A stretch of 64,000 bases of DNA from a virus. Its lineage: Duplodnaviria; Heunggongvirae; Uroviricota; Caudoviricetes. The notes beneath the pieces are model-generated. The model did no database searches, was not told the origin of the DNA, and saw only the letters and a list, made by a program, of their open reading frames with translations. The position numbers and the translations under genes were made by a program. How positions within the stretch are numbered: position 1 is the first letter of the stretch; every line of letters starts with the position of its first letter. Below, in pieces: positions 1,163 to 3,598 of the stretch. The DNA lies in the IMG/VR virus record IMGVR_UViG_3300014598_000002. One strand, 5' to 3'.

Positions 1163-1888
1163 ATGGCAAAGCTATTTTTCAGCTTAAAACTTTGGGAGGC
1201 TAAGACATCAATAAGAGTCATGAATATGCTCGCTGAACAAGCTGAGACAAACATTGTAAGTGCTCTCAATGATGCCGCACTTCCGGGCGCGGTATTGGAA
1301 GATGAGTTTGAAGATTATCATGAGGATGATGACGGTAATGTTTATCGGTATACGGTACCGTATTTTACCTGCGGCTCCAGTTCTGGATATAATGCTGATG
1401 AAGTAAAATCGAAACACAAACACCTGATTACACAACTTACTCGTCGTTCAGCTTTTTTGACGATGTATGGACTATTTGAATACCACGTGGTCGAATGTCT
1501 TGCTGTCATGGATAAATTGTCGGGAGAGGAGACTGACAAAAAATTCAAATTGGTCGAAGACTGTCATAAGCGACTTACTGGATCTATAGGTGGCAAAGGC
1601 ATCAGAAGCATTGATCATCTTGCTGCAATCAGAAATATCATGGCCCACAATGACGGTGTTGTCGAAAATTATCATAGCCTTGCAAATTCAACCTTAAAGA
1701 AATCACGTGAGATTCGCGCAGTAAACCGAGCAATGAATGAAAACGCTGGTATAACAGTCAATACTTTCGACGAGATTCTCATGAACGATCGGTTTCTGAT
1801 GTATGTTGTAGGCGAGTTTGACAGATATGTTCGCGAGTTGGAGGCGGCAGTTATCTACTATCAAAAAGCATCTGTTAATTTTGGCTAA
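1163..1888 (+). CDS. HEPN-like protein (Rx4H motif R-NIMA-H), putative abortive-infection/RNase-type defense protein
   Basis: 241-aa ORF, AT-richer than the backbone. Contains IRNIMAHNDG, which fits the HEPN Rx4-6H signature. Sits right after the tRNA. Confidence 0.45.
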   Translation: MAKLFFSLKLWEAKTSIRVMNMLAEQAETNIVSALNDAALPGAVLEDEFEDYHEDDDGNVYRYTVPYFTCGSSSGYNADEVKSKHKHLITQLTRRSAFLTMYGLFEYHVVECLAVMDKLSGEETDKKFKLVEDCHKRLTGSIGGKGIRSIDHLAAIRNIMAHNDGVVENYHSLANSTLKKSREIRAVNRAMNENAGITVNTFDEILMNDRFLMYVVGEFDRYVRELEAAVIYYQKASVNFG

Positions 1889-2048
1889 GTCATAAACTAT
1901 TTATCTGTAGCACCACCAGTAGTAGGAGTGAGGCTGTTTGCATGGAGATAACAACAATGAAAATAAACAGATAATACAGATTAAAACTTCACGTTTGGAA
2001 GAAGAAAAACGCAAAAAAATCATAGGGGCATGACTACCCCTACCAATT

Positions 2049-2963
2049 TCACATAAGTTTTTTCCCCTGTTTGATTACACCATTCCCATCAATGTAATTA
2101 AACGTCCGATCGGAAGAAAATACCCTTTCGACTGCATTATAGATGACACATGTATTGAAATGAGCAGCTAATTTTTTAGTTGCATGATACTGACCACTTA
2201 TGTCACCGAAATCCCCATACAGCACTATATCTTTCGATATGGGGAAAAGAACACAGGTATCTTCAACTAGAAAACCTGGTGAACCTGGCCTGCCATCTGT
2301 CCACATCAAGCTTACTGGGTGATCTGAAGTTATGAAGGTGCCTGATTCATCTGTAGAACGGAATAATCGCCAGCTACGGCTACGGAGCGCAGTATCAATA
2401 GCCTTAGACATTTCCATTTCTGCCGCTATGAGAAATTCACGCTTAACCGAAATTGAGAATTGCCCACCTTCGACAAAATTTTTCATCTTCTCAAATGGAA
2501 CTACGGGAAGAGATTTCGCAGATTTTTCCTCATAATCTCGGATAGTATCCTCGTATCTCTCTTGATTTAAAACAGTCATTTTCGCGACCATTTCTACTAT
2601 CGGGGTTATTTGAGATTGTAAGTGTTCTCGCATAGCTGGTGTTCTTACAGCGAGTAATGAAATAAAAGTGAGAAGAATATCCTTTGTTTCTCCTGAGAAT
2701 GGCTTACCCTGACTAAGATTATTAAGTTCTGTAGCAACGCTACCCTCAAACTCAGCCAGTGTACTTTCGAGTACATTAGGATCAACATCTTCAGCATCAA
2801 TTCTGTTAAAATCTCTAACCCCTCCTACATTTCGAGTGTTAGATTCGAAGATTTTTTTATTTTTTAGATCAAAGGCAGTAAGCTTTGATTTCACACCTCT
2901 ATTTTTCGTAAATCCTCGCAAATAGCACTGAGAAAGGTAGTGATGATGTCTAGCTTGGTTCAC
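2049..2963 (-). CDS. DUF4238-like protein (resembles the Rst_DUF4238 single-gene anti-phage family)
   Basis: 304-aa AT-rich ORF. N-terminal HHYLSQCYLRGF matches the characteristic DUF4238 N-terminal motif (H-h-P-x-x-Y-L-r-x-F). GTG start with AAGGAA RBS 5 nt upstream. Confidence 0.5.
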   Translation of the reverse strand: MNQARHHHYLSQCYLRGFTKNRGVKSKLTAFDLKNKKIFESNTRNVGGVRDFNRIDAEDVDPNVLESTLAEFEGSVATELNNLSQGKPFSGETKDILLTFISLLAVRTPAMREHLQSQITPIVEMVAKMTVLNQERYEDTIRDYEEKSAKSLPVVPFEKMKNFVEGGQFSISVKREFLIAAEMEMSKAIDTALRSRSWRLFRSTDESGTFITSDHPVSLMWTDGRPGSPGFLVEDTCVLFPISKDIVLYGDFGDISGQYHATKKLAAHFNTCVIYNAVERVFSSDRTFNYIDGNGVIKQGKKLM

Positions 2964-3040
2964 AGTTATTCCTTATGACGCAAAAAATGTAAATATGAAT
3001 TGTGATAATATTATTCAGTTAATGCATTCTCAAACTGAAC

Positions 3041-3598
3041 TTAGCCTTTGAAATGTAAATTACAACCTGCACGGAATCCTCCTCCTATTTCGAGATATTC
3101 AGCTCGTGTCGTACCAGTCAGGTGCATAGACTGCTCTGTAAACTGGGCCATATCATGGCTACACTTTTTGGCCGTTGCTTTGTAGCCGCGGTTGCACATT
3201 GCATAAACAACGTTTGGATCGGCAAACTGTGAACGCTGTGCTATGGCGTTGCACGTCGTTGAGACTCTCGCTAATGCCTGTTCCGGACTCAATTCTCCAA
3301 CGAGTGTTGCTTTCTGCGAATTATTAAGTTTGCTGCAATCTAGTCTGCGTGCGGCAATGCGTTGCTTTAGATAGGTTTTCTGAGCATAATAAATGTCAAA
3401 ATCCTCTCTTTGCATCGTGGCCACGCCTCCAGATTTTGCGGGTATGCTGTTAACTTTGGCTAACTCCAAGCATAATTCACTATTGTCATTTATTGTTTTC
3501 AACTGGTCTACCGCTGTCTTTTCTGCTGATGGGGCGTAATGCCCGCTACACCCCGTTAATGTTGCAACTACAGCTGCATAAATTGTTAGACGCTGCAT
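3041..3598 (-). CDS. Cys-rich lipoprotein (signal peptide with lipobox LTGC)
   Basis: N-terminus MQRLTIYAAVVATLTGCSG is a typical lipoprotein signal. 185 aa. Confidence 0.55.
   Translation of the reverse strand: MQRLTIYAAVVATLTGCSGHYAPSAEKTAVDQLKTINDNSELCLELAKVNSIPAKSGGVATMQREDFDIYYAQKTYLKQRIAARRLDCSKLNNSQKATLVGELSPEQALARVSTTCNAIAQRSQFADPNVVYAMCNRGYKATAKKCSHDMAQFTEQSMHLTGTTRAEYLEIGGGFRAGCNLHFKG

What the first reader, a model, noticed from the sequence alone, without database searches (positions are those of the whole stretch)
1163..3598. AT-rich accessory islet next to tRNA-Asn: HEPN-like (Rx4H) protein, DUF4238-like protein and a Cys-rich lipoprotein
Three genes, compositionally distinct from the backbone, sit between the tRNA and phoH. 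One carries the HEPN RNase signature RNIMAH. One starts with the DUF4238 hallmark HHYLSQCYLRGF; that family includes a described single-gene anti-phage system from satellite hotspots. The genes are convergent and therefore probably independent. This looks like a defense/exclusion hotspot carried by the mobile element itself.
Basis: partly seen in the sequence, partly recalled or inferred. Interest (0 to 1): 0.7.

Follow-up and report, generated by a model that had tools for sequence, protein, structure and literature searches.

The report
Swappable anti-phage gene slot in phage-plasmid
A 2.6-kb AT-rich cassette between a tRNA gene and phoH occupies a slot where related SSU5/pHCM2-type phage-plasmids carry different, often anti-phage, genes; here it holds a known DUF4238 defence gene, an unannotated HEPN-like putative RNase and a lipoprotein of unknown role, which is useful but not a new kind of system.

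Summary
The window is an SSU5/pHCM2-type phage-plasmid, 99.9% identical to Enterobacter hormaechei pECL189-2. The three ORFs exist as described: 1163-1888(+), 2049-2963(-) and 3041-3598(-).

- **Hotspot.** Ten relatives align up to window 1095-1109 (eight of them to 1095) and, in seven, again from 3741-3742. Between those points they carry about nine different gene sets, including AbiH, AbiGi, an HNH-type nuclease and a TolA-C protein. The cassette 1096-3741 has 40.2% GC against a 49.5% backbone.
- **ORF2** is a true DUF4238 protein (Pfam 140 bits; PADLOC E 1e-106). It is 54% identical to the single-gene family in the P2 prophage hotspot; a DUF4238 gene from that hotspot protects E. coli against T7. 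Its predicted fold has no neighbour among solved structures.
- **ORF1** has no Pfam match. It has an invariant RNxxxH motif and is linked by profiles to HEPN models. It is probably a solitary HEPN RNase. Homologs sit in the same slot of S. Typhi pHCM2 and on 255 plasmids.
- **ORF3** is a lipoprotein with six conserved cysteines that occurs on mobile elements. I found no evidence on its function.

The three genes occur independently elsewhere. Verdict: a new member of a known kind (a defence hotspot in a temperate phage). No phenotype was tested.

The parts
847..921 (+). tRNA-Asn (GTT). It belongs to the conserved left flank of the hotspot. E. coli relatives carry extra tRNAs (Tyr, Thr, Ser) at this position.
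   Evidence: ARAGORN; Rfam tRNA 75.6 bits; relatives
1075..1094 (.). GC-rich hairpin AAAGGGGCTTCGGCCCCTTT. It is the last element of the conserved left flank. Homology ends at 1095 in eight of ten relatives and at 1107-1109 in the other two.
   Evidence: Terminator-like scan; blastn boundaries against 10 relatives
1096..3741 (.). Variable cargo cassette of 2,646 bp and 40.2% GC. Close relatives carry other gene sets in its place.
   Evidence: Flank and boundary mapping; GC statistics; alternative cargo
1163..1888 (+). ORF1, 241 aa. A solitary HEPN-like protein with no Pfam family, predicted to be an RNase effector.
1631..1648 (+). Codons for R157-N-I-M-A-H162, the Rx4H motif. R, N and H are invariant in the family, and R and H are invariant in distant relatives.
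2022..2043 (-). Hairpin followed by a T-run immediately downstream of the ORF2 stop. It lies between the convergent ORF1 and ORF2 and is probably the ORF2 terminator.
2049..2963 (-). ORF2, 304 aa. A DUF4238 protein, homolog of the single-gene anti-phage system called Rst_DUF4238 or DUF4238-Pers.
3041..3598 (-). ORF3, 185 aa. A predicted lipoprotein with six conserved periplasmic cysteines. Function unknown.
3548..3559 (-). Codons for the lipobox L14-T-G-C17 of ORF3.
   Evidence: Read from the sequence; conserved as L[AV]GC in homologs
3742..4581 (+). Conserved right flank: the phoH upstream region and phoH itself (RefSeq start 3808). Homology resumes at 3741-3742 in seven of the ten relatives aligned.

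Best explanation
Window 1096-3741 is the current cargo of a recombination-exchangeable accessory slot. The slot is a defence or exclusion hotspot of SSU5/pHCM2-type phage-plasmids. It lies between a conserved hairpin downstream of the tRNA gene(s) and the phoH upstream region.

**Shown**
- The flanks are conserved at 94-97% identity in close relatives, and the boundaries are sharp.
- The cargo between them differs among relatives and often consists of recognisable anti-phage genes.

**Inferred**
- Cargo is exchanged by homologous recombination in the conserved flanks. No flanking direct repeats or att-like sites were found.

**The three genes here are independent single-gene modules**
1. ORF2 is a DUF4238 protein of the family whose P2-hotspot member blocks T7. 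I infer it protects the lysogen from other phages. Its biochemical mechanism is unknown. Its many invariant polar residues (H7, H8, D51, E66, E73, E182, D214 and others) suggest an enzyme, and its predicted fold has no solved relative.
2. ORF1 is a divergent, solitary member of the HEPN superfamily. I infer it acts as an infection-activated RNase through the R157/H162 site, probably as a dimer as in other HEPN proteins, and causes abortive infection or growth arrest. How it is held inactive is unknown.
3. ORF3 is an exported lipoprotein. Serine at position +2 suggests outer-membrane sorting by the standard rule. The most plausible role is envelope-level exclusion or immunity, and this is the weakest inference.
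For: **Element identity**
- The window resembles SSU5-like phage-plasmids. Identity is 99.9% over 7.3 kb to E. hormaechei pECL189-2.

**Hotspot**
- blastn against 10 relatives shows homology ending at 1095 in eight of them (1107-1109 in the other two) and resuming at 3741-3742 in seven. In three the right break lies further downstream because phoH is rearranged or absent.
- Cargo sets seen in relatives:
  - AbiH plus a 463-aa protein
  - AbiGi plus a 403-aa protein
  - a 184-aa protein plus a 262-aa nuclease matching PDC-M68A, SduA and CBASS-endonuclease models, E 1e-22
  - a 410-aa protein with a weak putAbiC match
  - a 255-aa protein
  - a 304-aa protein plus a TolA C-terminal domain protein
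  - a 302-aa protein
  - an ORF1 homolog alone
  - an ORF1 homolog plus a 184-aa protein
  - an ORF1 homolog plus the 184-aa protein plus the nuclease, in S. Typhi pHCM2
  - a 70%-identical DUF4238 with other partners in an E. coli phage-plasmid
- The cassette has low GC.

**ORF2**
- Pfam and PADLOC matches.
- It is 54% identical to P0217, which sits between gpA and the portal gene of P2-like prophages.
- Rousset 2022 reports that a single DUF4238 protein from the P2 hotspot gives strong resistance to T7.

**ORF1**
- R157, N158, H162, R94, R95 and E106 are invariant. E106, R157 and H162 remain invariant in 72 distant relatives.
- hhalign of the family against the distant relatives gives 99.7% probability, E 2e-25.
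- RTasHEPN hits: 25 of the 41 family sequences scanned (ORF1 included) and 61 of the 73 sequences of A2 (ORF1 plus 72 distant relatives), plus scattered Cas13, CARF_HEPN and AbiD hits.
- Pfam HEPN_RiboL-PSP is hit by 10 of the 73.
- Homologs lie in defence islands or mobile elements: next to QatABCD in Pseudomonas, and with Abi_2, TIR and DUF4145 on Serratia plasmids.

**ORF3**
- Lipobox and conserved cysteines.
- Homologs occur only on mobile elements or island edges.
Against: - No phenotype was tested for any of the three genes.
- ORF1 has no direct Pfam HEPN match.
- Foldseek against the PDB found nothing significant for ORF1.
- PADLOC's RTasHEPN probably corresponds to the UG22-associated protein cluster, which Mestre 2022 assigns to HEPN only by remote homology. 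That correspondence is my inference.
- No antitoxin or regulator ORF accompanies ORF1. Only 67 nt lie upstream and 160 nt downstream.
- About half of the alternative cargo genes match no known defence model, so 'defence' is not shown for the whole slot.
- ORF3 has no link to defence, and its paralogs on F-type plasmids have unknown function.
- ORF2 is only 54% identical to the P2-hotspot family. I could not confirm that P0217 is the exact protein that was tested.
Confidence: 0.7

Rival explanations
1. The slot is a generic 'moron' or accessory-gene insertion site, and these three genes serve other purposes. ORF1 could be a plasmid-addiction toxin or an RNA-processing factor. ORF3 could be a host-envelope or virulence factor. 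ORF2 may not be active against phages in this host.
For: - About half of the alternative cargo genes have no defence-model match.
- ORF3 homologs lie in plasmid leading or maintenance regions and next to a T6SS Tle3/Tli3 module.
- The element is a plasmid-prophage that also carries a YafO toxin nearby.
- AT-rich islets next to tRNA genes are common in phages without being defensive (general knowledge).
Against: - Known abortive-infection or defence genes recur at the same site: AbiH, AbiGi, DUF4238 twice independently, and a Shedu/CBASS-like HNH nuclease.
- ORF1 homologs co-localise with Qat, Abi_2 and TIR genes.
- No antitoxin partner exists for ORF1.
Confidence: 0.2
2. ORF1 is not a catalytic HEPN RNase. 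It is a helical protein whose RNxxxH motif serves another role, such as binding or regulation, or it is the non-catalytic partner of a system whose second gene is missing here.
For: - ORF1 has no Pfam HEPN hit.
- Foldseek found no significant PDB match.
- Elsewhere ORF1 homologs directly follow different large genes: a trypsin-like protease, a GIY-YIG nuclease and an HTH protein. This could mean it normally works with a partner.
Against: - R, N and H are strictly invariant across the family, and R and H are invariant down to 13-23% identity.
- Profile hits fall consistently on HEPN-bearing models and almost nothing else.
- The gene is solitary in several independent contexts: the window, pHCM2, the CH4804 plasmid, a Pectobacterium conjugation-gene region, and a plasmid-like contig carrying the distant relative P0125.
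Confidence: 0.15
3. ORF3 and ORF2 form one two-gene operon, with a lipoprotein sensor or anchor and a DUF4238 effector, rather than two independent modules.
For: - They are on the same strand, 77 bp apart, with no terminator-like hairpin between them.
- They are found together in all three near-identical Enterobacter plasmids.
Against: - DUF4238 homologs in P2 prophages, in an E. coli island and in an E. coli phage-plasmid have no such lipoprotein neighbour.
- ORF3 homologs in Yersinia, Enterobacter and metagenomic plasmids have no DUF4238 neighbour.
- A promoter-like site (10 of 12 matches) lies in the ORF3-ORF2 gap at 3033-3005(-).
- DUF4238 alone sufficed against T7.
Confidence: 0.08

Closest known systems
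DUF4238 single-gene anti-phage system (Rousset et al. 2022, Cell Host Microbe; 'Rst_DUF4238' in DefenseFinder, 'DUF4238-Pers' in PADLOC)
   Same: - Full-length match to the PADLOC model (E 9.5e-107, residues 1-303 against 1-308 of 309) and to Pfam PF14022 (140 bits).
- Stand-alone gene.
- Carried in a variable hotspot of a temperate phage.
- 54% identical to the 309-aa family located between gpA and the portal gene of P2-like prophages.
   Different: - The carrier is an SSU5-type phage-plasmid of Enterobacter, not a P2-like prophage of E. coli.
- The sequence is only 54% identical.
- Activity and target phages are untested here.
[quoted passage not shown]
   Same: - Conserved flanks with sharply bounded, rapidly swapped, AT-rich cargo.
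- The cargo mixes known defence genes, unknown genes and stacked modules.
- The same gene families (DUF4238, Abi genes) move between hotspots of different elements.
   Different: - A different element (phage-plasmid, about 110 kb, IncFIB, extrachromosomal).
- A different location (tRNA cluster to phoH/grxA).
- I found no description of this locus in the searchable literature. A 2025 preprint that screened SSU5-group elements with DefenseFinder never uses the word 'hotspot' and reports no detected systems in pHCM2-like elements.
HEPN superfamily RNases: RT-associated HEPN (PADLOC PDLC03820, probably the UG22 neighbour of Mestre 2022), RiboL-PSP-HEPN (PF18735), HepT toxins of HepT/MntA pairs
   Same: - Invariant R-N-x3-H, the canonical Rx4-6H with a polar residue after R.
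- Mainly helical predicted fold.
- Profile links to RTasHEPN and RiboL-PSP-HEPN.
- Location in defence islands.
   Different: - No reverse transcriptase, MNT antitoxin or L-PSP partner is adjacent.
- ORF1 carries an extra N-terminal helix and beta-hairpin (residues 8-75) and an insertion (about residues 163-210).
- It is below the threshold of every Pfam HEPN model.
- It forms its own family of about 84 clusters at 90% identity, restricted to Gammaproteobacteria.
Phage- and plasmid-encoded exclusion lipoproteins (e.g. T5 Llp, Cor, TraT), recalled from general knowledge as an analogy only
   Same: A small exported lipoprotein encoded by a temperate mobile element in an accessory region.
   Different: - No sequence or family relationship was detected with any library.
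- No functional evidence exists.
- Relatives occur in F-plasmid regions of unknown function.

Membership tests
DUF4238 (Pfam PF14022) / PADLOC DUF4238-Pers | Score above the Pfam gathering threshold over the full domain | tested here: met
   140.2 bits against a cutoff of 27, E 1.2e-40, residues 7-286 on profile positions 2-280 of 281
DUF4238 (Pfam PF14022) / PADLOC DUF4238-Pers | Full-length match to the defence-system model | tested here: met
   PDLC03000 E 9.5e-107, residues 1-303 on 1-308 of 309; PHROG 29785 E 4e-105
DUF4238 (Pfam PF14022) / PADLOC DUF4238-Pers | Conserved N-terminal HHY(L)SQxYLxxF motif and the other invariant polar residues | tested here: met
   R5, H7, H8, L10, Q12, Y14, L15, F18 and 27 further columns are invariant in 46 homologs, and ORF2 has all of them
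DUF4238 (Pfam PF14022) / PADLOC DUF4238-Pers | Single-gene organisation inside a variable locus of a mobile element | tested here: met
   Homologs are solitary in the P2 hotspot, an E. coli island and another phage-plasmid. ORF2 has its own terminator and a promoter-like site.
DUF4238 (Pfam PF14022) / PADLOC DUF4238-Pers | Protection against phage (T7 in the original report) | not testable with these tools
   Known only from Rousset 2022 for a P2-hotspot protein
HEPN superfamily | Conserved Rx4-6H motif | tested here: met
   R157-N-I-M-A-H162. R, N and H are invariant in 41 family members. R and H are invariant in 72 distant relatives. The motifs align under hhalign.
HEPN superfamily | Significant match of the protein itself to a curated HEPN family model (Pfam) | tested here: not met
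   No Pfam family at E <= 0.1; nothing relevant in NCBIfam
HEPN superfamily | Profile-level link, direct or transitive, to recognised HEPN families | tested here: met
   - ORF1 against PADLOC RTasHEPN: E 0.0026.
- 25 of the 41 family sequences scanned (ORF1 included) hit it, plus Cas13b, Cas13c and AbiD.
- Distant relatives were found at E 5e-12 to 1e-3 in 1.84 billion proteins. Of the 73 sequences of A2 (ORF1 plus those 72), 61 hit RTasHEPN (best 8e-12) and 10 hit PF18735 HEPN_RiboL-PSP (best 1e-5).
HEPN superfamily | Helical-bundle fold superposable on solved HEPN domains | tested here: inconclusive
- Foldseek on the PDB: no hit with E <= 0.001.
- The AFDB library was unavailable.
HEPN superfamily | Metal-independent RNase activity dependent on R and H | not testable with these tools
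   Needs biochemistry
Bacterial lipoprotein (Lol/Lgt/Lsp substrate) | N-terminal signal peptide ending in a lipobox [LVI][ASTVI][GAS]C | tested here: met
   MQRLTIYAAVVATL-T-G-C17. The lipobox is conserved as LAGC or LVGC in homologs and as LAGC in the F-plasmid paralog.
Phage/prophage defence hotspot (in the sense of the P2/P4 hotspots) | Conserved flanks with different cargo in otherwise closely related elements | tested here: met
   Flanks are 94-97% identical. Breakpoints fall at 1095 (eight of ten relatives) and 3741-3742 (seven of ten). About 9 distinct cargo sets occur in 10-12 relatives.
Phage/prophage defence hotspot (in the sense of the P2/P4 hotspots) | Cargo enriched in anti-phage systems | tested here: inconclusive
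   - Known or candidate defence genes occur in about half of the sampled cargo sets: AbiH, AbiGi, DUF4238 twice, the PDC-M68A/SduA-like nuclease, and weak putAbiC.
- The other cargo genes are unknown.
- No systematic enrichment statistics were computed.

The most novel reading that the evidence does not exclude
The ORF1 family is a new, solitary HEPN-type anti-phage effector. It is widespread on clinically important replicons: the same slot of S. Typhi pHCM2, Klebsiella IncFIB/HI1B plasmids, and 255 PLSDB plasmids in all. The tRNA-to-phoH slot of SSU5/pHCM2 phage-plasmids is an undescribed, discovery-rich defence hotspot comparable to those of P2 and P4. Its many unannotated cargo genes (184, 255, 302, 304, 403, 410 and 463 aa) would include further new systems.
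Probability: 0.4. Interest if true: 0.6.

Novelty: new member of a known kind. Interest (0 to 1): 0.45.

Why it matters
SSU5/pHCM2-type phage-plasmids are common in clinical Enterobacteriaceae. This 7.3-kb region matched 856 PLSDB plasmids and plasmids in 264 of 5,426 complete E. coli genomes.

A defined, sharply bounded slot that swaps anti-phage genes would do three things:
1. It would help explain phage-susceptibility differences between otherwise similar strains, which is relevant to phage therapy.
2. It would offer a guilt-by-location resource for finding new defence genes, as the P2 and P4 hotspots did.
3. It would flag candidate immunity genes in elements reported as having none. pHCM2 of S. 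Typhi carries an ORF1 homolog plus an HNH-type nuclease pair in this slot.

The analysis also shows that DUF4238, a validated defence protein, still has no structural or mechanistic precedent.

Tried and rejected
**Searches that found nothing useful**
- PDB sequence searches with ORF1, ORF2 and the profiles A1 and A2 gave nothing meaningful.
- NCBIfam gave nothing relevant.
- Foldseek of the ORF1 model against the PDB gave no significant hit.
- The AFDB Foldseek library was not available.
- tblastn of ORF1 against 50,697 phage records found no match. PHROG 21382 does match strongly, presumably through prophage-derived members.
- A literature search for the RefSeq protein accessions returned no papers. 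Searches for a described SSU5 hotspot found none.

**Hypotheses rejected**
- An att-like or transposon-like insertion signature: only short repeats that look like chance matches, and none at the boundaries.
- An antitoxin partner for ORF1: there is no room for one. The 40-aa ORF at 1901-2023(-) starts at the downstream edge of ORF2's terminator hairpin and is not conserved with ORF1 homologs.
- ORF2 plus ORF3 as an obligate pair: the two genes occur separately elsewhere.
- ORF1 as an RT-associated gene: no adjacent RT in any context examined.

**Other**
- Rfam found no RNA element inside the cassette.
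Full report
**1. What is there**

The three ORFs are real:
- ORF1: 1163-1888(+), 241 aa
- ORF2: 2049-2963(-), 304 aa
- ORF3: 3041-3598(-), 185 aa

They lie between the window's only tRNA, tRNA-Asn at 847-921, and phoH. RefSeq annotates the same three genes in a 99.9% identical plasmid, Enterobacter hormaechei pECL189-2. There they are called 'hypothetical', 'DUF4238 domain-containing' and 'hypothetical'.

- RNIMAH is at ORF1 residues 157-162.
- HHYLSQCYLRGF is at ORF2 residues 7-18.
- The lipobox LTGC ends at Cys17 of ORF3, and there are six further cysteines.

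The segment is compositionally distinct. Cassette 1096-3741 has 40.2% GC. Same-length windows average 49.5% (sd 3.6), and only 2.6% of them are as low.

**2. What the element is**

The window is an SSU5/pHCM2-type phage-plasmid. The 7.3-kb region around the finding matches phage SSU5, Klebsiella and Escherichia phage-plasmids, 856 PLSDB plasmids and plasmids in 264 complete E. coli genomes. Most of these plasmids are about 110 kb, IncFIB and non-mobilizable.

**3. The site is a hotspot**

Only three plasmids carry the full region. Many close relatives with 94-97% identical flanks cover only about 64% of it.

I aligned the first 8 kb of the window to ten relatives:
- Homology stops at window 1095 in eight of them and at 1107-1109 in the other two. 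Position 1095 is the end of the hairpin at 1075-1094.
- Homology resumes at 3741-3742, just upstream of phoH, in seven of them. In the other three the right break lies further downstream because phoH is rearranged or absent.

Between these points the relatives carry different genes:

| Cargo | Source |
|---|---|
| AbiH + 463-aa protein | K. oxytoca (also annotated in Raoultella and E. hormaechei) |
| AbiGi + 403-aa protein | E. coli |
| 184-aa protein + 262-aa nuclease (matches PDC-M68A, SduA, CBASS endonuclease effectors; E 1e-22) | E. hormaechei, E. coli |
| 410-aa protein, weak putAbiC match | E. cloacae |
| 255-aa protein | E. ludwigii |
| 304-aa protein + TolA C-terminal domain protein | Citrobacter |
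| 302-aa protein | E. coli |
| ORF1 homolog alone | E. coli CH4804 plasmid |
| ORF1 homolog + 184-aa protein | C. freundii |
| ORF1 homolog + 184-aa protein + nuclease | S. Typhi pHCM2 |
| 70%-identical DUF4238 with yet other neighbours | E. coli phage-plasmid |

The cargo is therefore modular and stacked, as in the P2 and P4 hotspots. No direct repeats flank the cassette. I infer that exchange occurs by homologous recombination in the conserved flanks.

I found no description of this locus in the searchable literature. A 2025 preprint screened SSU5-group elements with DefenseFinder. It lists AbiH and other systems, never uses the word 'hotspot', and reports no detected systems in pHCM2-like elements.

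**4. ORF2**

Membership in DUF4238 is unambiguous:
- Pfam: 140 bits against a cutoff of 27
- PADLOC DUF4238-Pers: E 9.5e-107 over the full length
- PHROG 29785

All 35 invariant columns of a 46-sequence alignment are present in ORF2.

The 309-aa homolog P0217 is 54% identical. It lies between the replication gene gpA and the portal gene of P2-like prophages, which is the P2 hotspot. Rousset et al. 2022 report that a single DUF4238 protein from that hotspot gives strong resistance to T7 and that its molecular function is unknown.

**5. ORF1**

ORF1 has no Pfam or NCBIfam family. It belongs to a family of about 84 clusters at 90% identity in Gammaproteobacteria. R94, R95, E106, R157, N158 and H162 are invariant in that family.

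A profile search of 1.84 billion representatives found 124 proteins. I took 72 distant full-length hits from it (13-23% identity). They keep E106, R157 and H162 and align to the family over 228 columns at 99.7% hhalign probability.

Profile links to HEPN models:
- ORF1 itself hits PADLOC's RT-associated HEPN model weakly, E 0.0026.
- 25 of the 41 family sequences scanned (ORF1 included) hit that model.
- 61 of the 73 sequences of A2 (ORF1 plus the 72 distant hits) hit it, best E 8e-12.
- 10 of the 73 hit Pfam HEPN_RiboL-PSP.
- Nearly all the other weak hits are to HEPN-bearing models: Cas13b, Cas13c, CARF_HEPN and AbiD.

I therefore accept 'HEPN superfamily, new divergent family' on motif and profile evidence. 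I mark the structural test inconclusive. The RTasHEPN label probably corresponds to the UG22-associated cluster, which Mestre 2022 assigns to HEPN only by remote homology.

Genomic context supports a conflict-system role:
- In Pseudomonas, homologs lie next to QatABCD and a reverse transcriptase.
- On Serratia plasmids they lie among Abi_2, TIR, DUF4145 and RiboL-PSP-HEPN genes.
- In Pectobacterium one lies among conjugation (ICE-like) genes.
- In Aeromonas one lies in a small integrase island.
- In total 255 PLSDB plasmids carry a homolog.

Two points are unexplained:
- Elsewhere the gene often directly follows a different large gene: a trypsin-like protease, a GIY-YIG nuclease or an HTH protein.
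- Here it has no possible antitoxin.

**6. ORF3**

ORF3 is a predicted lipoprotein with six invariant cysteines. It belongs to a very small family of 7 clusters. A more distant lipoprotein paralog occurs on F-type conjugative plasmids: 42% identity over the C-terminal 100 residues, in 193 PLSDB records.

Its homologs have no constant neighbour. No library gives it a function. An envelope-level exclusion or immunity role is a guess by analogy only.

**7. Are the genes independent?**

- ORF1 and ORF2 are convergent. A hairpin followed by a T-run (2043-2022, minus strand) lies just after the ORF2 stop.
- ORF3 and ORF2 are in tandem, with a promoter-like site in the 77-bp gap.
- Each gene occurs elsewhere without the others.

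I conclude that they are three independent modules.

**8. Verdict**

This is not a new kind of system. It is a known defence gene, a new HEPN-like candidate and an unknown lipoprotein, sitting in a previously undescribed instance of a well-known phenomenon (a defence hotspot in a temperate phage). No function was tested.

Scores: interest 0.45; novelty 'new member of a known kind'.

Noticed in passing
window 4592-4795 (+): A 67-aa conserved backbone gene right after phoH matches Pfam PF21825 (E 3e-15). A 2025 bioRxiv preprint names this family 'Sequestin' and describes it as an anti-Thoeris 3'cADPR sponge. A probable counter-defence gene therefore sits next to the defence hotspot.
   Followed up: partly
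window ~47200-50000, ORF 47579-49648 (-): This is the lowest-GC region of the window (35.6%). It holds a 689-aa ORF with a weak, below-threshold ORC/CDC6-like / AAA ATPase match at its N-terminus and a C-terminal region matching the PADLOC candidate PDC-M36A (E 1e-13). Next to it is a 244-aa ORF with no family (49984-50718, minus strand). It may be a second defence islet.
   Followed up: partly
L039 (S. Typhi pHCM2, NZ_CP029951.1) 3501-5694: pHCM2 carries an ORF1 homolog (75% identity), a 184-aa protein and a 263-aa HNH-type nuclease (PDC-M68A/SduA-like) in the same slot. A 2025 preprint reports no detected defence systems in pHCM2-like elements.
   Followed up: partly
L009-L013 (Serratia plasmids) 4510-6729; L041 (K. 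pneumoniae plasmid) 3151-4729; L015 (Aeromonas) 4425-6747: ORF1-family genes lie directly downstream, on the same strand, of different large genes: a 476-aa trypsin-like protease (61-bp gap), a 278-aa GIY-YIG nuclease (17-bp gap) and a 500-aa HTH protein (74-bp gap). These could be partner-swapping two-gene systems.
   Followed up: no
window 923-942 / 986-1005: A 20-nt inverted repeat (95% complementary, 43-nt loop) lies immediately after tRNA-Asn. E. coli relatives carry extra tRNA genes (Tyr, Thr, Ser) at this position. It has no Rfam match.
   Followed up: no
window 5502-6545 (+) and 6597-6745 (-): A YafO-family toxin (6135-6545; Pfam E 5e-22) is preceded by a conserved 207-aa protein of unknown function (PHROG 13546). 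The pair is kept in all relatives examined. A weak sok-like Rfam hit (25.7 bits, below threshold) lies just downstream, next to a tyrosine integrase at 6719-7825.
   Followed up: no
window 4383-4577 (-): An Rfam match to the Yersinia antisense sRNA Ysr251 (56 bits, E 9e-13, below the gathering score of 100) lies antisense to the 3' end of phoH.
   Followed up: no
L023 (Citrobacter plasmid pRHBSTW-00127_3) 2508-2858 (-): In this relative the slot carries a 116-aa stand-alone TolA C-terminal domain protein (Pfam E 2e-27). It could act as a decoy against Tol-dependent phages or colicins. phoH is partly deleted there.
   Followed up: no
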